Assembly: GCF_023055435.1 (NCBI RefSeq)
Contig: NW_025963924.1
Coordinates: 8,680,001 to 8,744,000 of the forward strand
Reading direction: 5' to 3'
Source: Haliotis rufescens
Lineage: Eukaryota
Length of the DNA stretch: 64,000 nt
Shown: piece after piece, positions 2,884 through 49,767 of the stretch
Layout: each line of letters opens with the position of its first letter
Position numbering within the stretch: position 1 is the stretch's first letter
Made by a program: the position numbers and the translations under genes
The notes under the pieces: generated by a model
Seen by the model: the letters and a program-made list of their open reading frames with translations, nothing else
The model's database searches: none
Told to the model about the DNA's origin: nothing

Positions 2884-5367
2884 ATGGCAAGTCTACAACC
2901 GTCACGGCTCATATTCAAATGTGTATGCTACATCCTACTGATAGCAATGGTTTATGGTCAGGGTTGTCCCCCTTGCAATTGTACCTACGACCATCATCAA
3001 GTATATGTGAACTGCTCCAACCAGAATCTTACAAGCGTTCCCAAGGGTTTACCAACATCAACCACAATGCTTTTTCTCAATGGAAACAACATAAAGACAA
3101 TAGGACCAAAAACATTTTCAACAATGAGAAATCTTCAATATCTATATATTGAGAGAAACTCTCTTGTTAGCCTACATGAACTGGCCTTTCATGGTCTTGA
3201 CAACCTTGTCAATCTGAGCTTAAAACTCAACGATCTAAAACTAAATTCAAAAACCTACAAAACCAATCTCTTCAAGCCACTACATAAACTTCAGGTTCTT
3301 AACATACAGTTCAATCAGATGACAACATGGCCTGGAGATGACAGTCAACGTATAGCCTACCCTGATGTTTCGTTTCAACATCTGTCTCGACTTACTCACC
3401 TTTACATCGATGGTCGTCCAACAGACTTTGGACCAGGATTTGCCAAACTTTTCAAACTGTCTCTTCTCGCCTTCACGCCATACACTAACTATTGCAAACT
3501 GACTTTACAAAACTCAACCTTTATAAACGTACCCCATGTGGAATATCTCTACATGACCTACTGCCAAATCAGAGATGCAGAACAATTAACATTTTCTCCC
3601 TTTTATCGTATCCATACACTTGACGTGTCACAAAATTGGGAATTGGGATTTCCTGAATTTGCTAAAGCAACGTATGGGCTCCGTGATTCCACCATACAAA
3701 TCCTGAAAATGAACCATATTTCTCCATTATCTGGATCTTGTTATCAACTGCGGAGAAACGATTTTGTTCATTTAAAGAATACCTCACTGCGGGAACTTCA
3801 CCTTTCTGGAAATGGATTCATTGACTTCGAAAAAGGAACCATTTTAAATTTTCCTGAAACTCTCAAGGTGTTGGTGGCCAGATGGAACCGGTTTTACGAA
3901 GGTCCATACATAGAGGAACTGACTCAGGTAAAGTCACTCCAATATCTGGATGTCTCACACCTAAAACTATTAAGACCGACATTTAGCTTTCATAGATATG
4001 ATCCTGTAAGTCATGTGTCGAACGGTGGATTTCCCTTTCCACCAAACCTTCAAGTCTTGAAACTTTCATTCTGTTGCATGGGTTTATACTTCCCCAACAC
4101 TGAAAAGGTGTTGAAAAACGATTTGAGAAGCATCTCTATAAATGGAAACTTGATATCTTTTGTTGGGGGTCCTGTTCGTGGTTTTGAAAAGGTCGAACAT
4201 TTTGATTTCTCTGACAATAAAATGGAGAGGCTCGATTCAAGTTTCTTTACTTTTAGCAATCGTGTGAAATATCTCAACCTTTCAAACAACTTTCTTGGAA
4301 ATATGATAGATAAAGATGACAAGGGTGATACTTTCAGTCAGCTGATTAAATTGACAGATTTGGATATGTCTCGAAACAGAATCAAATACTTACCAAAAGC
4401 TGTTTTTAAAAATCTTACAAATATACATTATCTCAGAATAAATAGCAACAGTATAAGAACAATTGATGCTCAAATCAAACACTTGTCGCATCTTAAATTA
4501 TTCGATGTAAGCCATAACAGCCTCCTCAAAATACCTGTAAACATTCTTCAAGAACTGGACACATTATCACATGTTTCTGTCCGTCTGAGAGGAAACCCAC
4601 TTACTTGCATATGCTCTTCCCTCGAATCCCTTCACTGGATGAACAGACTTGCCGATAACATTGAAGACATGGAATCAATTACGTGTCTTATGAAAAATGG
4701 GAAGATCAATTTTAGAAACCTAGATTCCATAATTACAAGTTTGGAAAAAGAATGCCATTCAAGTGTTCTTACCACTGTCATGACAATGTCTATTACCTTG
4801 ATAATAATGGTCGGAATAGGACTAGGAGCAGGATATCGGCATAGGTGGAAATTGAAATATCTGTACTATGTCGGGAGAAGAAAGTATCGGGAACTGGAGA
4901 ATACTGACCAAGATGACCAGGAGTACCAATATGATGCCTTTGTGTCATATGCAGACACAGACAGATGCTTAGTTATAGAGGGAATGATATCGGAACTGGA
5001 AGACAAAGCAGGACTTCGATTGTGCATTCATCATCGGGACTTTCTTCCAGGGGAGGTTATTGCTTCAAACATTGTCAACGCAATACAGAACAGCCGCAAG
5101 ACCTTGATTGTTTTATCTCCAGCTTTCCTGAAGAGTCACTGGTGTGATTTTGAGTACAACATGGCGCGGATGGAGGGCGTCTCCAGGAGACAGAACATCG
5201 TGCTGGTGGTGCTGTATGAGCCTGTCGACATGAAGGATCTACCTAAGGACATGGCAGTCATGTTGTCCACCAACTGTTACTTGGAGTACAACACAGATGT
5301 CTATGGCAGTGTTGTATTCTGGAACAGTTTACGTGAATCTATTACCACTGTAAATAAAATCGACTGA
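2884..5367 (+). CDS. Toll-like receptor, copy 1 (single cysteine cluster type, uninterrupted CDS)
   Basis: ATG at 2884 matches the paralog starts (the track's 2875 start is a GTG). Signal peptide, LRRNT CPPCNC..VNCS, many LxxLxLxxN repeats, LRRCT NPLTCIC..C..C, TM (VMTMSITLIIMVGIGLGAGY), TIR motifs YDAFVSY, LCIHHRDFLPG, WCDFE and FW. Confidence 0.96.
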   Translation: MASLQPSRLIFKCVCYILLIAMVYGQGCPPCNCTYDHHQVYVNCSNQNLTSVPKGLPTSTTMLFLNGNNIKTIGPKTFSTMRNLQYLYIERNSLVSLHELAFHGLDNLVNLSLKLNDLKLNSKTYKTNLFKPLHKLQVLNIQFNQMTTWPGDDSQRIAYPDVSFQHLSRLTHLYIDGRPTDFGPGFAKLFKLSLLAFTPYTNYCKLTLQNSTFINVPHVEYLYMTYCQIRDAEQLTFSPFYRIHTLDVSQNWELGFPEFAKATYGLRDSTIQILKMNHISPLSGSCYQLRRNDFVHLKNTSLRELHLSGNGFIDFEKGTILNFPETLKVLVARWNRFYEGPYIEELTQVKSLQYLDVSHLKLLRPTFSFHRYDPVSHVSNGGFPFPPNLQVLKLSFCCMGLYFPNTEKVLKNDLRSISINGNLISFVGGPVRGFEKVEHFDFSDNKMERLDSSFFTFSNRVKYLNLSNNFLGNMIDKDDKGDTFSQLIKLTDLDMSRNRIKYLPKAVFKNLTNIHYLRINSNSIRTIDAQIKHLSHLKLFDVSHNSLLKIPVNILQELDTLSHVSVRLRGNPLTCICSSLESLHWMNRLADNIEDMESITCLMKNGKINFRNLDSIITSLEKECHSSVLTTVMTMSITLIIMVGIGLGAGYRHRWKLKYLYYVGRRKYRELENTDQDDQEYQYDAFVSYADTDRCLVIEGMISELEDKAGLRLCIHHRDFLPGEVIASNIVNAIQNSRKTLIVLSPAFLKSHWCDFEYNMARMEGVSRRQNIVLVVLYEPVDMKDLPKDMAVMLSTNCYLEYNTDVYGSVVFWNSLRESITTVNKID

Positions 5368-11170: not shown

Positions 11171-13654
11171 ATGGCAAGTCTACAACCGTCACGGCTCATA
11201 TTCAAATTTGTATGCTACATCCTACTGATTGAAATGGTTTATGGTCAGGGTTGTCCCCCTTGTGATTGTACCTACGACCTTCATCAAGTATATGTGAACT
11301 GCTCCAACCGGAATCTTACAAGCGTTCCCAAGGGTTTACCAACATCAACCACAATGCTTTTTCTCAATGAAAACAACTTAAAGACAATAGGACCAAAAGC
11401 ATTTTCAACAATGAGAAATCTTCAATATCTATATCTTGAGAGAAACTCTCTTGTTAGCCTACATGAACTGGCCTTTCATGGTCTTGACAACCTCGTCAAT
11501 CTGAGCTTAAAACTCAACGATCTAAAACTAAATTCAAAAACCTACAAAACCAATCTCTTCAAGCCACTACATAAACTTCAGGTTCTTAACATACAGTTCA
11601 ATCAGATGACAACATGGCCTGGAGATGACAGTCAACGTATAGCCTACCCTGATGTTTCGTTTCAACATCTGTCTCAACTTACTCACCTTTACATCGATGG
11701 TCGTCCAACAGACTTTGGACCAGGATTTGCCAAACTTATCAAACTTTCTCTTCTCGCCTTCACGCCATACACTAACTATTGCAAATTGACTTTACAAAAC
11801 TCAACCTTTATAAACGTACCCCATGTGGAATATCTCTACATGACCGCCTGCCAAATCCGTGAGGTGGAATCCTTAACATTTTCTTCTTTTTATCGTATCC
11901 ATACAATTGACGTGTCACAAAATTGGGAATTGGGATTTCATGAATTTGGCAAGGCAACGTATGGACTCCGTGATTCCTCCATACAAATTCTGAAAATGAA
12001 CCATATTTCTCCATTATCTGGATCATGTTATCAACTGCGGAGAAACGATTTTGTTCATTTAAAGAATACCTCACTGCGGGAACTTCACATTTCTGACAAT
12101 GGACTCATTGACTTCGAAAAAGGAACCATGCTGAACTTACCTGAAACTCTAGAGATGCTGGTGGCCAGAAGGAATAGGTTTTACCTTGGTCCATACTTGT
12201 TAGAAATGTCTCAAGCAAAGTCACTCCGAATTCTGGATATCTCACACATGGAAATATTGGAGAGTACAGACGTCAGACAAGATAACCCTTCCAGTCGTGT
12301 GTCAGCACCCAGTAATTACCCTTTTCCACCAAACCTTCAAGTCTTGAAATTATCATTCTGTTGCCTGAAATATAGAATCTTTGGCGGTGATGTGATGAAA
12401 AACGATTTGAGAAGCATTTCCCTGAACGGTAATTTGTTTACTTCTGTAAGGGGACAGGTCTATGGTTTTGAAAACGTTGAACATTTTGATTTCTCTGACA
12501 ATATCTTGGAGTGGCTCGATTCAAGTTTCTTTGCTATTGACAATCGTGTGAAACATCTCAACCTTTCAAACAACTTTCTTGGAAATATGATAGATGAAGA
12601 TGACAAGGGTGATACTTTTAGTCAACTGGTTAACTTGACAGATTTGGATATATCTCAAAACAGAATCAATTACTTACCAAAGGCTGTTTTTAGAAATCTT
12701 ACAAATATACAATATCTCAGAATTAATAACAACAGTATAAGAACAATTGATGCTCAAATCAAACACTTGTCGCATCTTAAATTATTTGACGTAAGCCATA
12801 ATGGCCTCCTCAAAATGCCTGTAAACATTCTTCAAGAACTGGACACATTATCACATGTTTCTGTCCGCCTGAGAGGAAACCCACTTACCTGCATATGCTC
12901 TTCCCTCGAATCCCTTCGCTGGATGAACAGACTTGCTGATAACATCGAAGACATGGAATCAATGACGTGTCTTATGAAAAATGGGAAGATGAACAATTTG
13001 AGAAACCTAGATTCCATAATTATCAATTTGGATAAAGAATGCCGTTCAAGTGGTCTTACTACTGTCATGACAATGTCTATTCTCTTGATAATAATGGTCG
13101 GAATAGGATTAGGTGCAGGATATCGTCATAGGTGGAAATTGAAATATCTGTACTATGTCGGGAGAAGAAAGTATCGGGAACTGGAGAATACTGACCAAGA
13201 TGACCAGGAGTACCAATATGATGCCTTTGTGTCATATGCAGACACAGACAGATGCTTGGTTATAGAGGGAATGATATCGGAACTGGAAGACAAAGCTGGA
13301 CTTCGATTGTGCATTCATCATCGGGACTTTCTTCCAGGGGAGGTTATTGCTTCAAACATTGTCAACGCAATACAGAACAGCCGCAAGACCTTGATTGTTC
13401 TGTCTCCAGCTTTCCTGAAGAGTCACTGGTGTGATTTTGAGTACAACATGGCGCGGATGGAGGGCGTCTCCAGGAGACAGAACATCGTGCTGGTGGTGCT
13501 GTATGAGCCTGTTGACATGAAGGATCTACCTAAGGACATGGCAGTCATGTTGTCCACCAACTGTTACTTGGAGTACAACACAGATGTCTATGGCAGTGTT
13601 GTATTCTGGAACAGTTTACGTGAATCTATTACCACTGTTAACAAAGTCGACTAA
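11171..13654 (+). CDS. Toll-like receptor, copy 2
   Basis: 827 aa ORF with the same LRR-TM-TIR architecture; TIR essentially identical to copy 1. Confidence 0.96.
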   Translation: MASLQPSRLIFKFVCYILLIEMVYGQGCPPCDCTYDLHQVYVNCSNRNLTSVPKGLPTSTTMLFLNENNLKTIGPKAFSTMRNLQYLYLERNSLVSLHELAFHGLDNLVNLSLKLNDLKLNSKTYKTNLFKPLHKLQVLNIQFNQMTTWPGDDSQRIAYPDVSFQHLSQLTHLYIDGRPTDFGPGFAKLIKLSLLAFTPYTNYCKLTLQNSTFINVPHVEYLYMTACQIREVESLTFSSFYRIHTIDVSQNWELGFHEFGKATYGLRDSSIQILKMNHISPLSGSCYQLRRNDFVHLKNTSLRELHISDNGLIDFEKGTMLNLPETLEMLVARRNRFYLGPYLLEMSQAKSLRILDISHMEILESTDVRQDNPSSRVSAPSNYPFPPNLQVLKLSFCCLKYRIFGGDVMKNDLRSISLNGNLFTSVRGQVYGFENVEHFDFSDNILEWLDSSFFAIDNRVKHLNLSNNFLGNMIDEDDKGDTFSQLVNLTDLDISQNRINYLPKAVFRNLTNIQYLRINNNSIRTIDAQIKHLSHLKLFDVSHNGLLKMPVNILQELDTLSHVSVRLRGNPLTCICSSLESLRWMNRLADNIEDMESMTCLMKNGKMNNLRNLDSIIINLDKECRSSGLTTVMTMSILLIIMVGIGLGAGYRHRWKLKYLYYVGRRKYRELENTDQDDQEYQYDAFVSYADTDRCLVIEGMISELEDKAGLRLCIHHRDFLPGEVIASNIVNAIQNSRKTLIVLSPAFLKSHWCDFEYNMARMEGVSRRQNIVLVVLYEPVDMKDLPKDMAVMLSTNCYLEYNTDVYGSVVFWNSLRESITTVNKVD

Positions 13655-22434: not shown

Positions 22435-24888
22435 ATGGCAAGTCTACAACCGTCACGGCTCATATTCAAATGTGTATGCTACATCCTACTGATAGCAATG
22501 GTTTATGGTCAGGGTTGTCCCCCTTGCAATTGTACCTACGACCATCATCAAGTATATGTGAACTGCTCCAACCAGAATCTTACAAGCGTTCCCAAGGGTT
22601 TACCAACATCAACCACAATGCTTTTTCTCAATGGAAACAACATAAAGACAATAGGACCAAAAGCATTTTCAACAATGAGAAATCTTCAATATCTATATAT
22701 TGAGAGAAACTCTCTTGTTAGCCTACATGAACTGGCCTTTCATGGTCTTGACAACCTCGTCAATCTGAGCTTAAAACTCAACGATCTAAAACTAAATTCA
22801 AAAACCTACAAAACCAATCTCTTCAAGCCACTACATAAACTTCAGGTTCTTAACATACAGTTCAATCAGATGACAACATGGCCTGGAGATGACAGTCAAC
22901 GTATAGCCTACCCTGATGTTTCGTTTCAATATCTGTCTCAACTTACTCACCTTTACATCGATGGTCATCCAACAGACTTTGGACCAGGATTTGCCAAACT
23001 TATCAAACTTTCTCTTCTCGCCTTCACGCCATACACTAACTATTGCAAACTGACTTTACAAAACTCAACCTTTATAAACGTACCGAATGTGGAATATCTC
23101 TACATGACCTTCTGCCAAATCCGTGAGGTGGAATCCTTAACATTTTCTTCTTTTTATCGTATCCATACAATTGACGTGTCACAAAATTGGGAATTGGGAT
23201 TTCATGAATTTGGCAAGGCAACGTATGGACTCCGTGATTCCTCCATACAAATCCTGAAAATGAACCATATTTCTCCATTATCTGGATCATGTTATCAACT
23301 GCGGAGAAACGATTTTGTTCACTTAAAGAATACCTCACTGCGGGAACTTCACATTTCTGACAATGGACTCATTGACTTCGAAAAAGGAACCATGCTGAAC
23401 TTACCTGAAACTCTAGAGATGCTGGTGGCCAGAAGGAATAGGTTTTACCTTGGTCCATACTTGTCAGAAATGTCTCAAGCAAAGTCACTCCGAATTCTGG
23501 ATATCTCACACATGGAAATATTGGAGAACCCTTCCAGTCGTGTGACAGGGCCGAGTAAATACTTTTTTCCACCAAACCCTCAAGTCTTGAAATTATCATT
23601 CTGTTGCCTGAAATATAGAATCTTTGGCGGTGATGTGATGAAAAACGATTTGAGAAGCATTTCCCTGAACGGTAATTTGTTTACTTCTGTAAGGGGACAG
23701 GTCCATGGTTTTGAAAACGTTGAACATTTTGATTTCTCTGACAATATCTTGGAGTGGCTCGATTCAAGTTTCTTTGCTTTTGTGAAACATCTCAACCTTT
23801 CCAGAAACTTTCTTGGAAATATGATAGATGAAGATGACAAGGGTGATACTTTTAGTCAACTGGTTAACTTGACAGATTTGGATATATCTCAAAACAGAAT
23901 CAAATACTTACCAAAGGCTGTTTTTAGAAATCTTACAAATATACAGTATCTCAGAATAAATAGCAACAGTATAAGAACAATTGATGCTCAAATCAAACAC
24001 TTGTCGCATCTTAAATTATTTGACGTAAGCCATAATGGCCTCCTCAAAATGCCTGTAAACATTCTTCAAGAACTGGACACATTATCACATGTTTCTGTCC
24101 GTCTGAGAGGAAACCCACTTACCTGCATATGCTCTTCCCTCGAATCCCTTCTCTGGATGAACAGACTTGCTGATAACATCGAAGACATGGAATCAATGAC
24201 GTGTCTTATGAAAAATGGGGAGATGAACAATTTGAGAAACCTAGATTCCATAATTATCAATTTGGATAAAGAATGCCGTTCAAGTGGTCTTACTACTGTC
24301 ATGACAATGTCTATTCTCTTGACAATAATGGTCGGAATAGGATTAGGTGCAGGGTATCGACATAGGTGGAAACTGAAATACCTGTACTATGTCGGGAGAA
24401 GAAAGTATCGGGAACTGGAGAATACTGACCAAGATGACCAGGAGTACCAATATGATGCCTTTGTGTCATATGCAGACACAGACAGATGCTTAGTTATAGA
24501 GGGAATGATATCGGAACTGGAAGACAAAGCTGGACTTCGATTGTGCATTCATCATCGGGACTTTCTTCCAGGGGAGGTTATTGCTTCAAACATTGTCAAC
24601 GCAATACAGAACAGCCGCAAGACCTTGATTGTTCTGTCTCCAGCTTTCCTGAAGAGTCACTGGTGTGATTTTGAGTACAACATGGCGCGGATGGAGGGCG
24701 TCTCCAGGAGACAGAACATCGTGCTGGTGGTGCTGTATGAGCCTGTTGACATGAAGGATCTACCCAAGGACATGGCAGTCATGTTGTCCACCAACTGTTA
24801 CTTGGAGTACAACACAGATGTGTATGGCAGTGTTGTATTCTGGAACAGTTTACGTGAATCTATTACCACTGTTAACAAAGTCGACTGA
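22435..24888 (+). CDS. Toll-like receptor, copy 3 (two in-frame ectodomain deletions)
   Basis: 817 aa ORF, closest to copy 2 but lacking 7 aa (STDVRQD) and 3 aa near FAIDNRVK. Confidence 0.94.
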   Translation: MASLQPSRLIFKCVCYILLIAMVYGQGCPPCNCTYDHHQVYVNCSNQNLTSVPKGLPTSTTMLFLNGNNIKTIGPKAFSTMRNLQYLYIERNSLVSLHELAFHGLDNLVNLSLKLNDLKLNSKTYKTNLFKPLHKLQVLNIQFNQMTTWPGDDSQRIAYPDVSFQYLSQLTHLYIDGHPTDFGPGFAKLIKLSLLAFTPYTNYCKLTLQNSTFINVPNVEYLYMTFCQIREVESLTFSSFYRIHTIDVSQNWELGFHEFGKATYGLRDSSIQILKMNHISPLSGSCYQLRRNDFVHLKNTSLRELHISDNGLIDFEKGTMLNLPETLEMLVARRNRFYLGPYLSEMSQAKSLRILDISHMEILENPSSRVTGPSKYFFPPNPQVLKLSFCCLKYRIFGGDVMKNDLRSISLNGNLFTSVRGQVHGFENVEHFDFSDNILEWLDSSFFAFVKHLNLSRNFLGNMIDEDDKGDTFSQLVNLTDLDISQNRIKYLPKAVFRNLTNIQYLRINSNSIRTIDAQIKHLSHLKLFDVSHNGLLKMPVNILQELDTLSHVSVRLRGNPLTCICSSLESLLWMNRLADNIEDMESMTCLMKNGEMNNLRNLDSIIINLDKECRSSGLTTVMTMSILLTIMVGIGLGAGYRHRWKLKYLYYVGRRKYRELENTDQDDQEYQYDAFVSYADTDRCLVIEGMISELEDKAGLRLCIHHRDFLPGEVIASNIVNAIQNSRKTLIVLSPAFLKSHWCDFEYNMARMEGVSRRQNIVLVVLYEPVDMKDLPKDMAVMLSTNCYLEYNTDVYGSVVFWNSLRESITTVNKVD

Positions 24889-29485: not shown

Positions 29486-32400
29486 AAACTTTTTAATCAA
29501 AACTTTTTAACCCTAAGGTCAATTTCATATTGTCTATTTCAGGGTTTAAAACCATTTCAAAATATAACCAATCAAAAGACAGTTGACCTAATTACTACGC
29601 ATCCTTATTCAAATACTACGGAATACACTTACATATTAAAAATAATAATGGCCAAATTTGGTCTAATTCCGTTTCTATTCATAAGATTAAGAGCCAGTTC
29701 ACATTCAGCCAATCAAATTATATCATACATTCGATACAAAAGAGCCCTTGCTTCCTTTTTCGAAAAGCACGACAATGCGACAACGTGACAATGCGACTGT
29801 AATGATTACTGCATCTTTAAATATTTTAACGAAGCGCGACAACGCGACAATGCGACAATACGTTTCATCACAATGTGCATTGTTGCATTGTCGCGCCTGT
29901 AATGATTACTGCATATTTTAACAAAGCACGACAACGCGACAATGCGCCATTTCATCAAAAATGCGTTGTCACAGTGTCGCACTTGTAATAATTACTGCAT
30001 ATTTTAACAAAGAACGCCAATGCGACAATGCACCATTTCATCAAAATGACGCGTTGTCGCATTGTACCATTGTCGAGCTTCTAGTAGTTACTGCTTATTT
30101 TGAATATTTAAACAAAACATGATCTATGGTTAAAGATGAATGCACCCAGTGAACCAACTCAGTCCCAACAATTACAAATGCGCATACATACGTCCATGAA
30201 GGAGCTATGTCTGTGAGTTAAAGGTCGTCGGTAAACTGATTTTTTAAAGTATTAAGTCCAATTAAGTGTACAGTAAACGAACTCAAAGGGTTCATTAGTT
30301 TTAGTTCGTTATAAGCATATACACAGCATAACTAAAGCAAATAGTCGGAACAAAAAGTAAGTTCGTTATATCCGTCATTTCGTTAAAAGCGTATACTCTT
30401 AACAGTATTTCAGTTATGGCATGTCAGCTAGATGAGGGAGGAAAGTCGAAAGTCATGTTGGTCCTAAACAAAAAACATAATCAGGACGAATCGGGAATTC
30501 GAACACACGCTCATAGGGTTCTGGCACGTCGAATTCATCGATTTGAGAGAGTGAGCGAGTTTATTTATAATAAAAATAATCCATTTCTATGTCACTTTCT
30601 CCATCCTGAATATCATGCTCGAAGCACATTATTACCCCGGCCATTCTCATCTCCAAGGGAAGTATATATACGACCAAAGCTGCCTGTGATGTGCTGAAAG
30701 GTTAACAGCCACATTGTCATATTAGAGGCTACCCTTTCACTGCTGGCTGAACAGTGGCATATTTCAAACAAAGTCACTTGCCCAAAGTCACACACCACAT
30801 GCCCATGTGTTACGTGTGCTTCGCTGTTGGACAGGACCGAGGCCCTTGAAAAACTCAGGAACGAAGCAGCCGAACACGGTCACCCATCCACTTTACGATT
30901 CCGACTTTATTATAAACATGTGTTTATGATGTACTATAAAATAGTGATGATGTCGTATCCTCGCGAAAAGGTGAGTCTATCCTGCCCCTTCACAAGCACA
31001 CGCAACAGTAAGTCAATTGTTCACCTGAACAAACGCTGGAACATGTCACAAGTCAACAAACGTCAATTCCATCGGACATAATCTTGGCCACTGATGCGTC
31101 AAACTTGGAAATATCTCCCACATGTCTGCCATAAAACATGAGGGCAGAGGGCACGAAGTCGGCACAAGAGCCGATATTTGGCAGTTATATCTTAATTATC
31201 TCAAATATATTTCAAGTCAGTTTTCAGTTCAGTTTTGCAAATGTCCTTGTGTTAAGGTGTAAGGTACAGTATACAATGAGAGTCAAAAATCAAACTATAC
31301 TTCTGAACATACTCAGTGATATATCTCACACTCTACAGACATATGTATGAAAATAACACCACAATGTCAGTGTGAACTGATGGCTGTAACAACACACTGA
31401 ACGTTAACCCATCGGGGCTCAACACAACTTTCTCATTCATATCAGGAATTATCAGCGCTACCTGGGAAAATTTAACTATCTTATAATAAAACACAAAACC
31501 CATCTTGTTGGTGGCAGATTTGACAATAGTCCCCTGCAGGCAACCACAGCTGTTGCTACATGGAAGCGATTTTTTTACTTTAGCTACAAGGGTTAAGTAG
31601 TTCGAGATCGGACTACACTGCCAGCAACAAGGATGTTTAATTTGATTCCAATAGTCAAGTGAACGCGTCTGCATCATTTGGACGTCATTTGTGGTAAGTA
31701 CAAATTAGTCTCTCATACAAACGCTGAAACAAGAAATATCCCAAATCACACAAGCAAACAATACTTTAGAAATCATAAAACGACACCCCAAACATTATTC
31801 TTCAGTAAAACATGTTTATGTGTAATCGTAGCTAAGTCGCCAGACAAATTATCAGTGATTTAGCGGGATCATTCCTGTTTGTAAATAAGTTGATTATGTA
31901 CGCAATAGCAAAAGGCTTTATCATTGTATTACCAGCTCATTAATTTATAATTATAGTTACTGTAATATTAAGGTTGTACCATTTTCATTTGTGAATGCCA
32001 ATACTGTAAGAAGACGAGGGGTGCAAGGTTAGAATGGATCCCCAAGCAGCTTATGTCTGTCGTTAGATGATACTCAGATGAATCGGCTGGTCAGTCTCCG
32101 TACCACGACAGTATATATTGTTATGCTGAGTGCGGCGTAAAACAAAACAAACGAGCACAATAGTTCATTATGTGCACCAACCACGTTGTCTACGTTTGTT
32201 TACTCTTGCATAAGTACCCGATAAAATCTGTAACTGATCACGCTAAATGCTCCAGTTTTGTCATGCAAAATGCTCCAACTCTATTGAGAAAGGCCAATGA
32301 AAAAAATTCATATAACTTTATTAATGACAGAATATATTTCCCAGTTATATGGTTCAAGCACAGGGGTATTGTATCTATATTCCACGTACTCAAAACTACA

Positions 32401-32747: not shown

Positions 32748-35231
32748 ATGGCAAGTCTACAACCGTCACGGCTCATATTCAAATGTGTATGCTACATCCT
32801 ACTGATAGCAATGGTTTATGGTCAGGGTTGTCCCCCTTGCAATTGTACCTACGACCATCATCAAGTATATGTGAACTGCTCCAACCAGAATCTTACAAGC
32901 GTTCCCAAGGGTTTACCAACATCAACCACAATGCTATTTCTCAATGGAAACAACATAAAGACAATAGGACCAAAAGCATTTTCAACAATGAAAAATCTTC
33001 AATATCTATATATTGAGAGAAACTCTCTTGTTAGCCTACATGAACTGGCCTTTCATGGTCTTAACAACCTCGTCAATCTGAGCTTAAAACTCAACGACCT
33101 CAAACTAAATTCAAAAACCTACAAAACCAATCTCTTCAAGCCACTACATAAACTTCAGGTTCTTAACATACAGTTCAATCAGATGACAACATGGCCTGGA
33201 GATGACAGTCAACGTATAGCCTACCCTGATGCCTCGTTTCAACATCTGTCTCGACTTACTCACCTTTACATCGATGGTCGTCCAACAGACTTTGGACCAG
33301 GATTTGCCAAACTTTTCAAGCTTTCTCTTCTCGCCTTCACGCCATACACTAACTATTGCAAACTGACTTTACAAAACTCAACCTTTATAAACGTACCCAA
33401 TGTGGAATATCTCTACATGACCTACTGCCAAATCAGAGAAGCAGAACCATTAACATTTTCTCCTTTTTATCGTATCCATACACTTGACGTGTCACAAAAT
33501 TGGGAATTGGGATTTCCTGAATTTGCTAAAGCAACGTATGGGCTCCGTGATTCCTCCATACAAATCCTGAAAATGAACGGTATTTCTCCATTATCTGGAT
33601 CTTGTTATCAACTGCGGACAAACGATTTTGTTCACTTAAAGGATACCTCACTGCGAGAACTTCACATTTCTGGCAATGGACTCATTGACTTCGAAAAAGG
33701 AACCATTTTGAACTTACCTGAAACTCTAGAGATGCTGGTGGCCAGATGGAATAGGTTTTACCTTGGTCAATACTTGTTGGAAATGTCTCAAACAAAGTCA
33801 CTCCGAATTCTGGATATCTCACACATGAAAGCATTGAGGAGTACAGACGTCAGACAATATAACCCTTCCACTCATGTGTCAGTACCCAGTATTTTCCCTT
33901 TTCCACCAAACCTTCAAGTCTTGAAATTATCATTCTGTTGCCTGAAATTAAGCTTCATTGGTGGTGATCTGATGAAAAACGATTTGAGAAGCATTTCTCT
34001 GAATGGTAATTTGATTACTTCTGTAAGGGGACAGTCCCATGGTTTTGAAAACGTTGAATATTTTGATTTCTCGAACAATATCTTGGAGTGGCTCGATTCA
34101 AATTTCTATGGTATTGACAATCGTGTGAAATATCTCAACCTTTCCAAAAACTTTCTTGGAAATATGATAGATGAGGATGACAAGGGTAATTCTTTCAGTC
34201 AACTGGTTAACTTGACAGATTTGGATATATCTCAAAACAGAATCAAATACTTACCAAAGGCTATTTTTAGAAATCTTACAAATATACAATATCTCAGAAT
34301 TAATAACAACAGTATAAGAACTATTGATGCTCAAATCAAACACTTGTCGCATCTTAAATTATTTGACGTAAGCCATAATGGCCTCCTCAAAATGCCTGTA
34401 AACATTCTTCAAGAACTGGACACATTATCACAGGTTTCTGTCCGTCTGAGGGGAAACCCACTTACCTGCATATGCTCTTCCCTCGAATCCCTTCGCTGGA
34501 TGAACAGACTTGCTGATAACATCGAAGATATGGAATCAATTACGTGTCTTATGAAAAATGGGAAGATGAACAATTTGAGAAACCTAGATTCCATTATTAT
34601 CAATTTGGATAAAGGATGCCGTTCAAGTGGTCTTACTACTGTCATGACAATGTCTATTCTCTTGATAATAATGGTCGGAATAGGATTAGGAGCAGGGTAT
34701 CGTCATAGGTGGAAACTGAAATACCTGTACTATGTCGGGAGAAGAAAGTATCGGGAACTGGAGAATACTGACCAAGATGACCAGGAGTACCAATATGATG
34801 CCTTTGTGTCATATGCAGACACAGACAGATGCTTGGTTATAGAGGGAATGATATCGGAACTGGAAGACAAAGCTGGACTTCGATTGTGCATTCATCATCG
34901 GGACTTTCTTCCAGGGGAGGTTATTGCTTCAAACATTGTCAACGCAATACAGAACAGCCGCAAGACCTTGATTGTTCTGTCTCCAGCTTTCCTGAAGAGT
35001 CACTGGTGTGATTTTGAGTACAACATGGCGCGGATGGAGGGCGTCTCCAGGAGACAGAACATTGTGCTGGTGGTGCTGTATGAGCCTGTTGACATGAAGG
35101 ATCTACCCAAGGACATGGCAGTCATGTTGTCCACCAACTGTTACTTGGAGTACAACACAGATGTGTATGGCAGTGTTGTATTCTGGGACAGTTTATGTGA
35201 ATCTATTACCACTGTTAATAAAATCGACTGA
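32748..35231 (+). CDS. Toll-like receptor, copy 4
   Basis: 827 aa ORF, LRR-TM-TIR; C-terminus reads FWDSLCE instead of FWNSLRE. Confidence 0.96.
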   Translation: MASLQPSRLIFKCVCYILLIAMVYGQGCPPCNCTYDHHQVYVNCSNQNLTSVPKGLPTSTTMLFLNGNNIKTIGPKAFSTMKNLQYLYIERNSLVSLHELAFHGLNNLVNLSLKLNDLKLNSKTYKTNLFKPLHKLQVLNIQFNQMTTWPGDDSQRIAYPDASFQHLSRLTHLYIDGRPTDFGPGFAKLFKLSLLAFTPYTNYCKLTLQNSTFINVPNVEYLYMTYCQIREAEPLTFSPFYRIHTLDVSQNWELGFPEFAKATYGLRDSSIQILKMNGISPLSGSCYQLRTNDFVHLKDTSLRELHISGNGLIDFEKGTILNLPETLEMLVARWNRFYLGQYLLEMSQTKSLRILDISHMKALRSTDVRQYNPSTHVSVPSIFPFPPNLQVLKLSFCCLKLSFIGGDLMKNDLRSISLNGNLITSVRGQSHGFENVEYFDFSNNILEWLDSNFYGIDNRVKYLNLSKNFLGNMIDEDDKGNSFSQLVNLTDLDISQNRIKYLPKAIFRNLTNIQYLRINNNSIRTIDAQIKHLSHLKLFDVSHNGLLKMPVNILQELDTLSQVSVRLRGNPLTCICSSLESLRWMNRLADNIEDMESITCLMKNGKMNNLRNLDSIIINLDKGCRSSGLTTVMTMSILLIIMVGIGLGAGYRHRWKLKYLYYVGRRKYRELENTDQDDQEYQYDAFVSYADTDRCLVIEGMISELEDKAGLRLCIHHRDFLPGEVIASNIVNAIQNSRKTLIVLSPAFLKSHWCDFEYNMARMEGVSRRQNIVLVVLYEPVDMKDLPKDMAVMLSTNCYLEYNTDVYGSVVFWDSLCESITTVNKID

Positions 35232-36977
35232 AACACAGCAGATATAACTCCTTGATTGAATATAGATATAGCCATATATTTATGGTGTGCCAAGGCAGTT
35301 TATATAGTGTTCAAATACATCACGATCTATACTGTGACACCTTCTTAAAATAAAGAGCTTTTTTACCACAGATGAAAGTGTTGTCGATCCCTGTCTATGT
35401 ATTAACTTGCAGCTTCTAATTCGGTGCATGTGTTTCCTTGTAGATTTGGTCCGCCACTATGCTTTTAGTGTTCGATACTGCACCAAACTGTAATACAGGT
35501 TACTTGCAATGAGAAAACACAGCTATTTATATATTATTTTTTTTATGAATTATGTTATGCATATTTGCGATATTATAACTATGAGTATTAATAATGTTTT
35601 AAATAAACTTTGTGTACAACTATTATTAAACAGATATTATTCTTCCATACAATGTATGCTGAGTTTATTATTTGTCCCTGGCGAAGGATGCAAAACAATC
35701 ATTGTAGTTCACACACATTGCAGATGATATCGTTCATTGTTGTTAGAAAATAAATACAAACAAAATCTGTAATTCTTCATGACAGCGGCTCTCATCCATT
35801 CAACACAAAAGAACCATTCACTGCATCCTACGCCTTTGTGTACGATCGAGTTATTCTGTAAACATAACACAACAGTTCAAAAACTAACTTTAAAATCTTA
35901 AGAACTGACCTTGAGGGAACCTGGAACTTTTGTACTAAACAGAAGTATTTCTGTGTGTGCTTCAATACATACACCCATTTTCACTGAAAGAAAGAACTAA
36001 ACAATTATATTTTTTGTCATTCTTTTGTAAAATCCGAGGCATAACTAATTTGTTTTAATTGAAATGAACTTTGACACACCCTTGTACCTTGGAGGTGTAG
36101 TTAAAGGTCAAAGGTCAAAGAGCAGCACCTGCTTCCGAGTGTGAAATCGGTTTGTCGCTTGGATTTTGATGAAAGAACCTGGAGTTCTCTTATTGCATAA
36201 ATAATAGTCAAAGTCTGTGACTCATACAAGTGTATTTTACGGTAGTTTCGCATGACTACATCCTGATCTAGAAACTGCGAAATAGATTTACAAAATATAA
36301 GAATAAGTATTTTAACCCGTTTGATGCTTCCTGCGACATGTTGTGGAGGGTGTCAACTAACATTCCCAAAACATTCGCCATCATGCTTCGAATATGAGGC
36401 AATATCCAAAAAAAATTCTGATTTGTGGAAAGGATATAACATTTATTAAAACGTTTTCAAAATCACACAAAAATAAGATCTCTTCTTGTGGAAATCCATG
36501 TGAAAATAATATACACGTCTTTCTTGAATGTCCCAAATACACTCGTCCCAGAAATATCATGTTCACTAACATTATAACAGCTGGAAGTACATGTACAATG
36601 CAAAATATTCTCTATGGTAATGAATCTCTAGCTGATAGTCACAATAATCACATTTTCAACAACATTCAAAAATATATACTGTCGACTTAAAGAATTATCA
36701 TAAATATATGATATTGCTCTGCGACCACTTACTATTTGTTACGACATAAGTGTAAAAACCTTATCTCTAAAAGTATTAATGACAGTGTATATTACGTTAT
36801 GTGGGCCGAGTGCAGGGGCTCCGGTACTCCAAGTATCCAATGCACGATGTTGATTACCGCCTGATGACGTCATTGTAGTCTGCCGGATCTTGCCCTGACC
36901 TGTGTTCTGTCAGCCTATGACGTTCAAACAGTCTGGCGATGGTTGCACGTGTACAGTTGAAGTTCTTGCAATCTGGG

Positions 36978-37617: not shown

Positions 37618-38701
37618 TTTTCAGGGTTTAAAACCATTTCAAAGTATAACCAATCAAATGACAGTTAACCTAATTACTGCGCATCTTTATGCAAATACTA
37701 CGGAACACAATGACGCGTTGTCGCATTGTACCATTGTCGAGCTTCTAGTAGTTACTGCTTATTTTGAATATTTAAACAAAACATGATCTATGGTTAAAGA
37801 TGAATGCATCCAGTGAACCAACTTAGTCACAACAATTGCAAATGTGCATACATACGTCCATGAAGGAGCTATTTTTGTGAGTTAAAGGTCGTCGGTAAAC
37901 TGATTTTTAAAGTATTAAGTCCAATTAAGTGTACAGTAAACGAACTCTAAGGATTCATTAGTTTTAGTTTGTTATAAGCATATACACAGCATAACTAAAG
38001 CAAATAGTCGGAACAAAAAAGTAAGTTCGTTATATCCGTCAGTTCGTTATAAGCGTCTTCGTTATAAACGTAGTTTACTGTATATGATTCAAATATAGAC
38101 ATCGCAACAGTTTTGTAAAACTCCAGAGTGAGTATGGTTTAACGCTCCTCTTAACAGTATTTCAGTTATGGCATGTCAGCTAGATGAGGGAGGAAAGTCG
38201 AAAGTCATGTTGGTCCTAAACAAAAAACATAATCAGGACGAATCGGGAACACACGCTCATAGGGTTCTGGCATGTCGAATTCATCGATTTGAGAGAATGA
38301 GCGAGTTATAATTATTTATAATAATAATAATCCGTTTGTATGTTACTTTCTCCATCCTGAATATCATGCTCGAAGCACATTATTACCCCGGCCATTCTCA
38401 TCTCCAAGGGAAGTATATATACGACCAAAGCTGCCTGTGATGTGCTGAAAGGTAATCAGCCACATTGTCATATTAGAGGCTACCCGTTTACTGCTGGCTG
38501 AACAGTGGCATATTTCAAACAAAGTCACTTGCCCAAAGCCACACACCACATGCCCATGTGTTACGTGTGCTTCGGTTTTGGACAGGACCGAGGCCCTTGA
38601 CAGACAGACAGACAGACAGTTTATTCAGTAAGAAGGCCATAGGCCCATAATACAGACAATGTTTGATTGCATGAACTACGCATGCCAAGGAAGTAGTCGA
38701 T

Positions 38702-41700: not shown

Positions 41701-42172
41701 TGTGTGGGTGTTCCCCAACAATAATGTTCAAGTAGTTTTCAAGATGAGTAAATCCATCACTATCTATATTCTCATTAACTGGTGAATTTTCGGGTGAGAT
41801 ATAAGTAAATATCAAAACACAGTCAGAGTCCCATGATAAACTTGATGTTTTGAATAAAAGTACAACAGTATTTTCAAAATTATCATAAAGCCTACATAAC
41901 AGTCCACTATCTAGCCAATGAGAGCGTATCAAAACAGTGATACCACCACTATATAGCCCGAACGTGTGTGTCTTGGGACGGACACAGTTTAGCGCACGAA
42001 AACCTGACAAGAAGTCCGAGAATTCATCGGACCGTCTCACAAATGACTCACAAAACGCGATCAAGTCAAAATGTTCACAAAGACTTTTTACCTGAGATGT
42101 CGAGTTTTCATATTTTCGCAGTCCTTCTATATTCCACGAGAGAATATCAAATGTTGGGCCGTGGCCGTCACA
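38702..42172 (-). CDS. LINE ORF2: APE endonuclease, reverse transcriptase and C-terminal zinc-binding motif
   Basis: The frame stays open up to 42172 (CDGHGPTFDILSWNIEGL...). EN motifs SWNIEGL, GDLNAR, VDY, DHSNH. RT motifs KSPGPDGI, YRGISL, QAGFR, FVDFSKAFD, GTRQGCILSP, FADD, YLG. C-terminal CKYC..EDEFH..C. Confidence 0.93.
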   Translation of the reverse strand, partial: CDGHGPTFDILSWNIEGLRKYENSTSQVKSLCEHFDLIAFCESFVRRSDEFSDFLSGFRALNCVRPKTHTFGLYSGGITVLIRSHWLDSGLLCRLYDNFENTVVLLFKTSSLSWDSDCVLIFTYISPENSPVNENIDSDGFTHLENYLNIIVGEHPHKHIFLAGDLNARTKDFLDYIPDDNIDFIQRDVDDYPSDTFDMPRKNRDSVTHNNFGKRLVELCRTFGIHTLNGRLFNDTNGEFTCFTHNGSSAVDYMIASSSLFPYFSNFGVGTQDHSNHFPLYCSLNIQGTSSGKYSQPPAPGNTRSNSNCNLEKEGGGSWEKYVWNEGAKETFLHKLEGILVEHYDYILQLANNNCNTAVSCLVSYYQEAAEHTKKVYGLNSNFRRNQQPPWWDDELELIKHDKYKALRAHRDHGEDFSLFRHLRSVFKNAFSRKKNSFLEAQREKLIAARDNPKLFWKLLKDSKPFNAVTQSINTEQWTNHFMSLLFRQDLALDSSMYHIPDNNDLTINIPILAEEISSQIKQLGNNKSPGPDGIAAEFLKSSEKQITPILVVTFNKIFESGNFPDVWGKSIICPLFKSGDMNDANNYRGISLIDTICKVFTSILNARLQRWCDDNNIIDESQAGFRPNYSTTDHIFSLQAIIQKYACKKKGRFYCLFVDFSKAFDNVDHNMLLQSLADIGVCGKFLSIITSMYNKLCACVRTPTGLSKYFKCNIGTRQGCILSPQMFLIFINKLVNFMENYGGQTVFITKDCPAIYALMFADDVSSIADEPLNLQKKINALEHFCNTTGMKVNLKKTKVMVFRNGGPLRHYEKWKFNSVYIETVSFYRYLGIVFTPKLVWTKALNTLAAQSNKAIMTLYRYQKKVGNIPCQDLFKIFDAMIVPIVCYGAEIWGISYCKIIEDVQNKMCKWFLNTGKTTNNAMVLGECGRAPLQLVYTTRAIKYWCRLLRLDERRLPRQCYLMLKSLDHSGRTTWATHIKNILFKLGFGYVWLTQDVGNVKVFIHLFKQRLFDNLQQSWCSSINSISDTFYYKHFKSLLNVEKYLTLPIPVHLRICMTRFRCSKFKLAIDLGRYTNVPYTERLCKYCIDNGIPFIEDEFHVLLVCERYSALRNMYLKQYIKFQTVTSFTEIISSENFDVVYNTCLYLYKVQRLRET

Positions 42173-42813
42173 TCACTTACCAAAATTGTCAACATTGGGA
42201 GTTAACTCCCCTGAAGGAGGTGTGTCTCGGTTTGTGTTGCTTCCGGGTCCAAACAAATCACTCCATGAACGATCGCGAAAAGAGGGCCTTGCATCACGAT
42301 GCGTACCCCCACCTGTAGACACCTTCTTCACACACTTGTCTTGTCGGTCGTACATATATACCTGCCCTTCCACAATAAGCTTGTTAACACGTATCTTAGG
42401 TCGTTTCCCGCTGTCTCTGGCTTCTTGAAAGTAGGTAGACAGTGCGCGTCTATCCTCTCGTATTTTCTGTGGGAAATCCTCTGTTACACGTGATCGGTGA
42501 TTTCTATCTTGTTGTTCCCGTCCTCTCTTGAAAATATCACTCTTGTCTTTTGTCAGTAGGAATTTAGCTATGATAGGAGAATCACTTTTGCCAGGGTTGA
42601 GGCGGTGAGCACGAATAATAACAATATCATTTGCCTTCTCCATGTGTAACTCGTCGCGCAGAAACTCTCTCACGTTTGACTCGGACTGATCCCATGTTTC
42701 GCCCCTCTCTCCAGATATTCCATGGAATATTAAGTTGTTTCGCCGCTCACGACACTCTTGATCCTCGAGTTTTTCTTCCAAACTAGACAGAGAAAGTCTC
42801 AGTTGTGTATTTT
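42173..42813 (-). CDS. LINE ORF1, C-terminal part (coiled coil plus L1-ORF1/Tnp22-like region), 5'-truncated
   Basis: Motifs LEEKLEDQECRERRNNLIFHGI, IIRAHRL, PIIAKFL, VTEDFP..RE.RR.L. The track's first ~13 codons come from host flank. Confidence 0.85.
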
Positions 42814-44948: not shown

Positions 44949-47432
44949 ATGGCAAGTCTACAACCGTCACGGCTCATATTCAAATGTGTATGCTACATCC
45001 TACTGATAGCAATCGTTTATGGTCAGGGTTGTCCCCCTTGCAATTGTACCTACGACCATCATCAAGTATATGTGAACTGCTCCAACCGGAATCTTACAAG
45101 CGTTCCCAAGGGTTTACCAACATCAACCACAATGCTATTTCTCAATGGAAACAACATAAAGACAATAGGACCAAAAGCATTTTCAACAATGAGAAATCTT
45201 CAATATCTATATATTGAGAGAAACTCTCTTGTTAGCCTACATGAATTGGCCTTTCATGGTCTTGACAACCTCGTCAATCTGAGCTTAAAACTCAACGACC
45301 TCAAACTAAATTCAAAAACCTACAAAACCAATCTCTTCAAGCCACTACATAAACTTCAGGTTCTTAACATACAGTTCAATCAGATGACAACATGGCCTGG
45401 AGATGACAGTCAACGTATAGCCTACCCTGATGCCTCGTTTCAACATCTGTCTCGACTTACTCACCTTTACATCGATGGTCGTCCAACAGACTTTGGACCA
45501 GGATTTGCCAAACTTTTCAAGCTTTCTCTTCTCGCCTTCACGCCATACACTAACTATTGCAAACTGACTTTACAAAACTCAACCTTTATAAACGTACCCA
45601 ATGTGGAATATCTCTACATGACCTACTGCCAAATCAGAGAAGCAGAACCATTAACATTTTCTCCTTTTTATCGTATCCATACACTTGACGTGTCACAAAA
45701 TTGGGAATTGGGATTTCCTGAATTTGCTAAAGCAACGTATGGGCTCCGTGATTCCTCCATACAAATCCTGAAAATGAACGGTATTTCTCCATTATCTGGA
45801 TCTTGTTATCAACTGCGGAGAAACGATTTTGTTCACTTAAAGAATACCTCACTGCGGGAACTTCACATTTCTGGCAATGGACTCATTGACTTCGAAAAAG
45901 GAACCATTTTGAACTTACCTGAAACTCTACAGATGCTGGTGGCCAGATGGAATAGGTTTTACCTTGGTCAATACTTGTTGGAAATGTCTCAAGGAAAGTC
46001 ACTCCGAATTCTGGATATCTCACACATGAAAGGATTGGCGAGTAGAGACGTCAGACAAGATAACCCTTCCACTCATGTGTCAGTACCCAGTATGTTCCCT
46101 TTTCCACCAAACCTTCAAGTCTTAAAATTATCATTCTGTAGCCTGAAATTAAGCCTCACTGGTGATTATCTGATGAAAAACGATTTGAGAAGCATTACTC
46201 TGAATGGTAATTTGATTGATTGTGTTATGGGACAGACTCATGGTTTTGAAAACGTTGAACATTTTGATTTCTCAAACAATATCTTGGAGTGGCACGATTC
46301 AAGTTTCTATGGTATTGACAATCGTGTGAAATATCTCAACCTTTCCAGAAACTTTCTTGGAAATATGATAGATGAAGATGACAAGGGTAATACTTTCAGT
46401 CAACTGGTTAACTTGACAGATTTGGATATATCTCAAAACAGAATCAAATACTTACCAAAGGCTATTTTTAGAAATCTTACAAATATACAATATCTCAGAA
46501 TTAATAACAACAGTATAAGAACAATTGATGCTCAAATCAAACACTTGTCGCATCTTAAATTATTTGACGTAAGCCATAATGGCCTCCTCAAAATGCCTGT
46601 AAACATTCTTCAAGAACTGGACACATTATCACATGTTTCTGTCCGTCTGAGAGGAAACCCACTTACCTGCATATGCTCTTCCCTCGAATCCCTTCGCTGG
46701 ATGAACAGACTTGCTGATAACATCGAAGACATGGAATCAATTACGTGTATAATGAAAAATGGGAAGATCAACAATTTGAAAAACCTAGATTCCATAATTA
46801 TCAATTTGGATAAAGAATGCCGTTCAAGTGGTCTTACTACTGTCATGACAATGTCTATTCTCTTGATAATAATGGTCGGAATAGGATTAGGAGCAGGGTA
46901 TCGTCATAGGTGGAAACTGAAATACCTGTACTATGTCGGGAGAAGAAAGTATCGGGAACTGGAGAATACTGACCAAGATGACCAGGAGTACCAATATGAT
47001 GCCTTTGTGTCATATGCAGACACAGACAGATGCTTGGTTATAGAGGGAATGATATCGGAACTGGAAGACAAAGCTGGACTTCGATTGTGCATTCATCATC
47101 GGGACTTTCTTCCAGGGGAGGTTATTGCTTCAAACATTGTCAACGCAATACAGAACAGCCGCAAAACCTTGATTGTTTTGTCTCCCGCTTTCCTGAAGAG
47201 TCACTGGTGTGATTTTGAGTACAACATGGCGCGGATGGAGGGTGTCTCCAGGAGACAGAACATCGTGCTGGTGGTGCTGTATGAGCCTGTTGACATGAAG
47301 GATCTACCCAAGGACATGGCAGTCATGTTGTCCACCAACTGTTACTTGGAGTACAACACAGATGTGTATGGCAGTGTTGTATTCTGGAACAGTTTACGTG
47401 AATCTATTACCACTGTTAATAAAATCGACTGA
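44949..47432 (+). CDS. Toll-like receptor, copy 5
   Basis: 827 aa ORF, LRR-TM-TIR; closest to copy 4. Confidence 0.96.
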   Translation: MASLQPSRLIFKCVCYILLIAIVYGQGCPPCNCTYDHHQVYVNCSNRNLTSVPKGLPTSTTMLFLNGNNIKTIGPKAFSTMRNLQYLYIERNSLVSLHELAFHGLDNLVNLSLKLNDLKLNSKTYKTNLFKPLHKLQVLNIQFNQMTTWPGDDSQRIAYPDASFQHLSRLTHLYIDGRPTDFGPGFAKLFKLSLLAFTPYTNYCKLTLQNSTFINVPNVEYLYMTYCQIREAEPLTFSPFYRIHTLDVSQNWELGFPEFAKATYGLRDSSIQILKMNGISPLSGSCYQLRRNDFVHLKNTSLRELHISGNGLIDFEKGTILNLPETLQMLVARWNRFYLGQYLLEMSQGKSLRILDISHMKGLASRDVRQDNPSTHVSVPSMFPFPPNLQVLKLSFCSLKLSLTGDYLMKNDLRSITLNGNLIDCVMGQTHGFENVEHFDFSNNILEWHDSSFYGIDNRVKYLNLSRNFLGNMIDEDDKGNTFSQLVNLTDLDISQNRIKYLPKAIFRNLTNIQYLRINNNSIRTIDAQIKHLSHLKLFDVSHNGLLKMPVNILQELDTLSHVSVRLRGNPLTCICSSLESLRWMNRLADNIEDMESITCIMKNGKINNLKNLDSIIINLDKECRSSGLTTVMTMSILLIIMVGIGLGAGYRHRWKLKYLYYVGRRKYRELENTDQDDQEYQYDAFVSYADTDRCLVIEGMISELEDKAGLRLCIHHRDFLPGEVIASNIVNAIQNSRKTLIVLSPAFLKSHWCDFEYNMARMEGVSRRQNIVLVVLYEPVDMKDLPKDMAVMLSTNCYLEYNTDVYGSVVFWNSLRESITTVNKID

Positions 47433-49750: not shown

Positions 49751-49767
49751 CTTTTAGTGTTTGAAAC

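What the first reader, a model, noticed from the sequence alone, without database searches (positions are those of the whole stretch)
33230..34200. TLR copies 4 and 5 look like chimeras of copy-1 and copy-2/3 ectodomains
Seen: over aa ~165-335 copies 4/5 share copy-1 states (SRLTH, AKLFK, TYCQIR.AE.LTFSPF, LDV, FPEFAK, SGNG, GTIL, ARWN). From about RFYLG onward they share copy-2/3 states (LLEMSQ.KSLRILDISHM, DVRQ.NPS, NILEW, LVNLTDLDISQN). States are interleaved around aa 305-335. Inference: gene conversion or unequal crossover shuffles LRR blocks between neighbours, generating combinatorial diversity.
Basis: partly seen in the sequence, partly recalled or inferred. Interest (0 to 1): 0.7.

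Follow-up and report, generated by a model that had tools for sequence, protein, structure and literature searches.

The report
Abalone TLR array guards central LRRs
Five tandem abalone immune-receptor (TLR) genes are nearly identical at both ends but stay distinct in the middle repeats, likely because gene conversion keeps overwriting the ends while the predicted ligand-sensing middle is spared, as described for bird TLR2A/TLR2B; copies 4 and 5 are likely not chimeras.

Summary
The chimera reading is not the best one. The same unrooted tree ((c2,c3),c1,(c4,c5)) is the ML tree on both sides of the claimed junction. Only copy 1's branch changes, from 0.9% to 15.7% of sites. Copies 4/5 carry 0 of 4 copy-1-class derived residues in aa 162-335, most shared residues are ancestral, and their promoters are copy-2/3-type. 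With H. cracherodii homologues, LRR10-16 groups by paralog class (by-species tree AU p=4e-39). The TIR side rejects the by-class trees (AU 0.008-0.018) and the N-terminus leans the same way. The best reading is an old A/B duplication homogenised at both ends by gene conversion, with a spared central island, plus later B duplications. Short patches do cross between classes, in an unresolved direction. This matches avian TLR2A/B (PMC3125219). My searches found no mollusc report. Earlier scan notes describe conversion at other loci of this genome, not at TLRs.

The parts
2884..5367 (+). TLR copy 1 (class A), 827 aa, single exon
   Evidence: groups with H. cracherodii P0012 in aa 307-470 (100% bootstrap)
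3802..4290 (+). Divergence island of copy 1, codons ~307-470 (LRR10-16 by sequence register), inferred to be spared from conversion
   Evidence: pS 0.31-0.35 to copies 2-5 vs 0.01-0.11 in codons 1-306 and the TIR side; c1-only sites 71/453; LRR register
11171..13654 (+). TLR copy 2 (class B, c2/3 subclass)
11858..11965 (+). Cluster of c2/3-specific states, codons 230-265; H257 and G260 are shared with the H. cracherodii class-A protein
22435..24888 (+). TLR copy 3 (class B, c2/3 subclass), 817 aa, two in-frame deletions; codons 13-70 identical to copy 1 over 11 polymorphic sites
   Evidence: Bonferroni P=0.004
32748..35231 (+). TLR copy 4 (class B, c4/5 subclass)
33483..33542 (+). Short tract, codons 246-265, where c1=c4=c5 at 6 of 6 polymorphic sites including derived L246; candidate small conversion patch, direction unresolved
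   Evidence: run not significant, P=0.18 for c1-c5
33666..34151 (+).
   Evidence: 33589-33948 found intact in run X1
35232..36975 (+). Copy 4 3' flank, colinear with copy 1's 3' flank (5368-7087, 92%); copies 2, 3 and 5 share another flank type
44949..47432 (+). TLR copy 5 (class B, c4/5 subclass)

Best explanation
The five genes are a tandem array of single-exon TLRs from one old duplication (class A = copy 1, class B = copies 2-5), whose N-terminal LRRs and TIR side have likely been homogenised by repeated gene conversion while the central LRR10-16 block was spared, probably because it sets ligand specificity. Step 1 (shown): copy 1 differs from copies 2-5 by 21-22% in the 5' flank and by pS 0.31-0.35 in codons 307-470, but by pS 0.01-0.11 in codons 1-306 and the TIR side. 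Step 2 (shown by trees): the central block groups by class across species, and the TIR side rejects grouping by class. Step 3 (inferred): non-allelic conversion produces this pattern. Step 4 (inferred): later unequal crossovers in the homogenised 3' part multiplied class B into c2/3 and c4/5 subclasses and gave copy 4 a copy-1-type 3' flank. Step 5 (inferred, untested): selection keeps the central block distinct, so the copies would share one signalling output but sense different ligands. Short patches around LRR4-9 also move between classes.
For: One topology is ML on both sides of the junction; c1's tip goes from 0.040 to 0.359 while the c2/3 stem stays 0.052/0.044. Synonymous differences vary among 5 segments for all 4 c1 pairs (chi2 P 2e-8 to 5e-7) and for none of the 4 B-B pairs tested (P 0.35-0.61), so regional mutation rate is not the cause. 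Protein trees with H. cracherodii, H. rubra and H. asinina: aa 307-470 and 471-660 reject the by-species tree (AU 4e-39, 0.0002); aa 661-827 reject the 3 by-class trees (AU 0.008-0.018); aa 1-161 weakly (AU 0.036, KH not significant). The H. cracherodii pair shows the same profile: 9%, 5.5%, 28%, 10%, 0.6% amino-acid distance along the gene. Among c2-c5 the island holds 52 replacement vs 12 silent variable sites, against 42 vs 33 in the rest of codons 28-660 (P=0.002). Organism-B contigs hold c1-, c2/3- and c5-type central sequences, and an organism-C contig a c4/5-type one (loose ends read by eye). A simulation changing only c1's tip gives MaxChi mean 34.7, close to the 33.3 seen with c3 as parent. 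Another TLR cluster (contig C2, L006 vs L008) shows the same central peak.
Against: Segment 162-306 is poorly resolved: a within-species tree joining c1 with c4/5 is not rejected (AU 0.59). c1 is closer to c4/5 there (pS 0.05-0.06) than to c2/3 (0.11). The c1-tip-only simulation reached the observed 60 in just 13 of 1000 runs, so patchiness on the c2 and c2/3 branches also contributes. R169 and L246, and perhaps I320, are derived states shared by c1/c4/c5. dN/dS in codons 336-470 is 0.58-0.68 for A vs B and 1.1-1.5 among B copies, never significantly above 1. The same block is also the most variable against H. rubra, so relaxed constraint is possible. PHI tests are weak (P 0.007-0.095 over 4 window sizes). 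Outgroups are proteins only. No ligand or expression data.
Confidence: 0.75

Rival explanations
1. One reading: the c4/5 ancestor received a block of about aa 165-335 from copy 1 and is a true A/B chimera.
For: Triplet switch P=0.0005. c1=c4=c5 at 6 of 6 polymorphic sites in codons 246-265. Derived R169 and L246 are shared. The within-species tree (c1,(c4,c5)) is not rejected in aa 162-306.
Against: c4/5 carry 0 of 4 class-A derived residues in aa 162-335, and carry G278 (shared with the H. cracherodii B protein) and S270 (shared with c2/3). The tree placing c4/5 with both class-A proteins gets AU 0.013 (KH 0.14). 5' flanks are B-type. The same sharing pattern continues 3' of the junction. A 749-nt organism-C contig joins G278, G309 and a non-Met 320 to B-type 3' sequence (partly inferred from change counts because 55 rows were hidden).
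Confidence: 0.12
2. Conversion as in the best explanation, but the island persists neutrally: indels in the LRR12-13 loops and accumulated mismatch block pairing, with no selection on ligand specificity. This competes with step 5 only.
For: Indels between c1 and B copies sit at alignment codons 367, 381 and 407. A-vs-B dN/dS is below 1. Most island changes are in variable LRR segments (46/110) rather than repeat cores (8/35). PMC3924837 (passages) notes that indels and substitutions end conversion.
Against: The island also peaks among B copies without those indels (c4 vs c5: 22 of 187 residues in LRR10-16 vs 4 of 242 in LRR1-9) and in the independent H. rubra pair (7.6% vs 0.7-4.3%). It is enriched in replacement changes (P=0.002).
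Confidence: 0.3
3. No conversion: the ends are similar only because of purifying selection.
For: The TIR side is strongly constrained (dN/dS 0.00-0.05 for c1 pairs).
Against: Silent sites are homogenised too, as is the non-coding 3' flank (c1 4-6% from the others vs 21-22% in the 5' flank). Distances to H. rubra and H. asinina stay 10-29% in those segments.
Confidence: 0.03
4. Copies 4/5 are assembly chimeras.
For: Near-identical tandem copies are hard to assemble. No long reads were available here.
Against: c4/5 have 18 shared private sites. Run X1 has a 360-nt contig identical to 33589-33948, of whose 330 31-mers 291 are absent from c1-c3. 33400-33513 is identical in X1, X5 and X8 (three studies). 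X5 has the c5 version of the junction. One run may be the source sample.
Confidence: 0.02

Closest known systems
Avian TLR2A/TLR2B (Huang et al. 2011, PMC3125219; passages read)
   Same: Tandem TLR paralogs converted from the N-terminus to LRR8 and from LRR15 to the TIR, with a central block that groups by ortholog. Here the spared block is LRR10-16 of about 19-20.
   Different: Mollusc, separate TLR lineage, five copies in three subclasses rather than two, ligand unknown. Homogenisation here extends at least 800 nt into the 3' flank, and partial class signal runs on to the transmembrane region.
Mammalian TLR1/TLR6 and avian TLR1A/B (as summarised in PMC3125219; Kruithof et al. not read)
   Same: Conversion homogenises the late LRRs, transmembrane region and TIR of tandem paralogs.
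   Different: Those have only a C-terminal tract; this array also has an N-terminal one.
'Peak of divergence' under conversion, e.g. red/green opsins (Fawcett and Innan 2011, PMC3924837; passages read)
   Same: A local divergence peak in otherwise homogenised duplicates, read as a target of selection.
   Different: No functional residues are known here, and the peak is about 500 nt wide with indels.
Molluscan single-cysteine-cluster TLR expansions (PMC10279657; passages read)
   Same: LRRNT-LRRs-LRRCT-TM-TIR layout, lineage-specific duplication, more variable ectodomain.
   Different: That paper's main text has 0 hits for 'conversion' or 'recombination'.

Membership tests
Single-cysteine-cluster TLR | LRRNT, LRR array and TIR domain in one chain | tested here: met
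   Pfam LRRNT (E 3.5e-5, below its curated cut-off), LRR_8 and TIR in c1 and c4; Foldseek top hits are TLR8, TLR7, TLR4, TLR3, from a low-confidence model
Single-cysteine-cluster TLR | One LRRCT next to the membrane, none inside the LRR array | tested here: inconclusive
   NPLTCIC...C motif at aa ~570-625 read by eye; no Pfam LRRCT hit; other cysteines lie in LRR6, 7, 9 and 13
TLR2A/B-type regional concerted evolution | Central block groups by ortholog across species | tested here: met
   aa 307-470: 100% support, by-species AU 4e-39
TLR2A/B-type regional concerted evolution | C-terminal region groups by species | tested here: met
   aa 661-827: by-class trees AU 0.008-0.018 on few sites; silent sites homogenised
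TLR2A/B-type regional concerted evolution | N-terminal region groups by species | tested here: inconclusive
   aa 1-161 by-class AU 0.036, KH 0.26; aa 162-306 unresolved; species-type residues E155, R218, L219 shared by both H. cracherodii proteins; silent sites homogenised
TLR2A/B-type regional concerted evolution | Spared block determines ligand specificity | not testable with these tools
   No ligand known; only replacement enrichment, P=0.002
Chimeric gene (A 5' / B 3') for copies 4/5 | Tree topology changes across the junction | tested here: not met
   Same ML topology in codons 162-335 and 336-470
Chimeric gene (A 5' / B 3') for copies 4/5 | Recipient carries donor-lineage derived states in the tract | tested here: not met
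   0 of 4 class-A markers; 2 shared-derived residues of unknown direction
Chimeric gene (A 5' / B 3') for copies 4/5 | 5' flank of donor type, if made by one unequal crossover | tested here: not met
   21.7-22.2% from c1, 2.7-4.4% from c2/c3

The most novel reading that the evidence does not exclude
Abalones independently evolved the avian TLR2A/B design. Three LRR10-16 specificity cassettes (A, c2/3, c4/5) are held by selection across species on a shared, conversion-homogenised scaffold, while short LRR7-9 and LRR16-17 patches (H257/G260, K488, Q341) are traded between classes and yield new ectodomain combinations in each species. The divergence peak would then map the ligand site of an orphan invertebrate TLR.
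Probability: 0.3. Interest if true: 0.55.

Novelty: new member of a known kind. Interest (0 to 1): 0.36.

Why it matters
Ligands of most mollusc TLRs are unknown (own knowledge). A conversion-resistant divergence peak points to LRR10-16 as the block to swap or mutate when looking for specificity. It also warns that TIR-based or whole-gene trees misdate mollusc TLR duplications and misassign orthologs. The case shows how triplet-style chimera calls can name the wrong recombinant when there is no outgroup. The mechanism itself is established in vertebrate TLRs.

Tried and rejected
Search for shorter homologous proteins: 0 of 731 candidates passed E<=1e-30. AlphaFold2 model of copy 4: mean pLDDT 49.7, used only for strand positions, no surface claims. 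PHI test: P 0.095, 0.091, 0.007, 0.022 for k=2, 3, 5, 8, weak. Pairwise dN>dS: significant in none of 54 pair-segments. The first LRR register had off-by-one starts and was redone. Expression: no RNA holder listed; runs guessed to be RNA were used only as sequence. X11's contig mixing c1 and c4/5 states was set aside as a possible graph mosaic at low depth. Of 87 protein matches in the genome, 20 loci in 6 clusters were examined; 4 had short ORFs and gave partial rows. Literature: searches gave no paper on gene conversion in abalone or mollusc TLRs (listings and abstracts only, except passages). Zou et al. 2023 (Fish Shellfish Immunol 137:108728, abalone TLR survey) was seen only as a citation in PMC12521104 and may cover this cluster. 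No supplements were read.

Full report
Anatomy. The window holds five intact single-exon TLR ORFs on the + strand, of 827, 827, 817, 827 and 827 aa. A DNA search and a protein search of the own genome found no other close copy: the five best protein matches are 73-100% identical and the next is 33%. The nearest named proteins are Haliotis 'toll-like receptor 4' entries: two from H. cracherodii (P0001, P0012), two from H. rubra and one from H. asinina. Sequence register gives about 19-20 LRRs. The AlphaFold model is weak (pLDDT 49.7) and its fold hits are vertebrate TLR ectodomains.

Observation. The quoted residues are there. As a triplet, c4 looks like c1 up to codon 321 and like c2 after it (33:9 vs 23:120, MaxChi 60.1, P=0.0005). 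One tree with regional rates never produced this in 1000 simulations. Something non-treelike has happened. It is not assembly noise: c4/5 share 18 private sites, run X1 has a contig identical to 33589-33948 across the junction, three studies have 33400-33513 unchanged, and X5 has the c5 form. 291 of the 330 31-mers in that X1 stretch are absent from c1-c3. These are short-read contigs, and one run may be the source sample.

Which copy is the mosaic? Among five sequences, 'c1=c4=c5 vs c2=c3' is simply the c2/3 stem, and 'c1 vs the rest' is c1's tip. Both fit ((c2,c3),c1,(c4,c5)). That tree is ML in codons 162-335 and 336-470 and is not rejected in any of five segments. The c2/3 stem is as long left of the junction as right (16/435 vs 15/453). 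The c4/5 stem does not change significantly (5/435 vs 8/453). c1's tip rises from 4/435 to 71/453 (P=2e-17). Silent differences are uneven along the gene for all four c1 pairs and for none of four B-B pairs tested. c1's 5' flank is 21-22% from every other copy, whereas c2-c5 are 2.7-4.4% apart. So c1 is the old duplicate, its coding ends have been made similar to the others, and c4/5 have B-type promoters.

Outgroups. In aa 307-470, c1 pairs with H. cracherodii P0012 (100%) and c2-c5 with P0001 (91%), and grouping by species is rejected (AU 4e-39). On the TIR side grouping by class is rejected (AU 0.008-0.018). In aa 1-161 the lean is the same but weak, and aa 162-306 is unresolved. Of ten sites with c1=c4=c5 vs c2=c3 in aa 162-335, six (190, 232, 239, 257, 309, 334) are c2/3-derived, two (169, 246) are shared-derived and two (260, 320) are ambiguous. 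Contigs of organisms B and C also carry the c2/3 base at codon 190, and organism C at codon 334, so those two polarities are soft. c4/5 carry none of four class-A derived residues in the tract and carry G278 with the H. cracherodii B protein. The 'c2/3' motif LVNLTDLDISQN is ancestral: the H. cracherodii A protein, H. rubra and H. asinina have VN...ISQ. Loose ends show c1-, c2/3- and c5-type central sequences in organism B and a c4/5 type in organism C (read by eye), so the subclasses predate those splits.

Patches do cross classes. H257/G260 is in class B (c2/3) here but in class A in H. cracherodii. K488 is in class A here but in class B there. Q341 joins c4/5 with the H. cracherodii A protein. 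c3 equals c1 over codons 13-70 (Bonferroni P=0.004). c1=c4=c5 over codons 246-265, where c1's own counterpart has the other state, so c1 may be the recipient; direction is unresolved. At the level of the duplication unit, c4 is B-type 5' with a c1-type 3' flank. That is the opposite orientation to the one proposed, and is what a crossover in the homogenised 3' part would give (inference). A simulation altering only c1's tip gave MaxChi 20-53 (5-95%) and reached 60 in 13 of 1000 runs, so it explains most but not all of the c4/c1/c2 signal.

Mechanism. An old A/B duplication, placed by the trees after the split from the H. rubra/H. asinina lineage, is followed by recurrent conversion of LRR1-9 and the TIR side, partial conversion of LRR17 to the membrane, and exclusion of LRR10-16 (inferred). 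Selection on ligand specificity is the likely reason. Variation among c2-c5 peaks in the same block and is enriched in replacements (52:12 vs 42:33, P=0.002), and the separate H. rubra pair peaks there too. Against this, no pairwise dN/dS is significantly above 1, indels in the island could block pairing neutrally, and no ligand is known.

Generality. Six other TLR clusters (20 of 87 matched loci) were sampled. C2 shows the same central peak (L006/L008: 1% at aa 161-230, 28% at 307-380, 0% at 661-745). C13 L016/L019 differ 33-44% outside the TIR and 9% within it. C24 L009 and C35 L021 are block mosaics with one sharp step. Regional homogenisation therefore appears in 4 of the 6 clusters sampled; C588 shows no sharp step and C583 gave only partial rows.

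Comparison and verdict. Huang et al. 2011 (PMC3125219, passages) report conversion from the N-terminus to LRR8 and from LRR15 to the TIR in avian TLR2A/B, with a spared centre. Fawcett and Innan 2011 (PMC3924837, passages) describe such peaks as marks of selection. Five searches and term checks in two mollusc TLR papers found no report for molluscs; an abalone TLR survey (Zou et al. 2023) could not be read. Verdict: real conversion, wrong recombinant named, new member of a known kind, interest 0.36.

Noticed in passing
window 38601-42813 (-): LINE-type insertion in the c4-c5 spacer with an uninterrupted 1156-codon endonuclease/RT frame (38705-42172), a tetranucleotide-repeat tail, an apparent ~6-bp target duplication and a 5' end inside an upstream ORF; absent from the other three spacers.
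   Followed up: partly
window 49421-52020: An older copy (71-87% identity) of the TLR 3' flank begins just after copy 5's own 3' flank, with no coding sequence: possible remnant of a deleted sixth copy or of the original B flank.
   Followed up: partly
L009 (G000:C24:31831300-31835400) vs L010/L011: An inverted TLR 40-60 kb from its neighbours is 4-9% different from them over the first ~230 aa-equivalents and 31-43% different over the rest, TIR included: a clearer block chimera than the one flagged.
   Followed up: partly
L021 (G000:C35:1899900-1903900) vs L020/L022/L023: A TLR whose first ~160 aa-equivalents differ 32-36% from its neighbours while the rest differs 1-8%: N-terminal block swapped or spared.
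   Followed up: partly
window 22435-24888 (copy 3): Two in-frame deletions, in the LRR12 loop and near the end of LRR15; Y166 and H178, private among the five copies, recur in contigs of organisms B and C, so they are old states.
   Followed up: partly
window 33725 (run X12, organism B): A contig with c2/3-like bases lacks 8 nt here, a possible frameshifted allele or pseudogene.
   Followed up: no
window 15181-15444, 26421-26668, 48848-49115, 55115-55393, 56552-56797, 58057-58324, 59757-60023, 62690-62967: A ~260-bp dispersed repeat in at least 8 copies on both strands.
   Followed up: no
window 18402-18717 and 29845-30046: 86-87-bp tandem repeats in the c2-c3 and c3-c4 spacers only.
   Followed up: no
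G000:C13:11926199-11947329: Three TLR matches about 10 kb apart with equal frame length (885 aa) and near-equal scores: a very young array.
   Followed up: no
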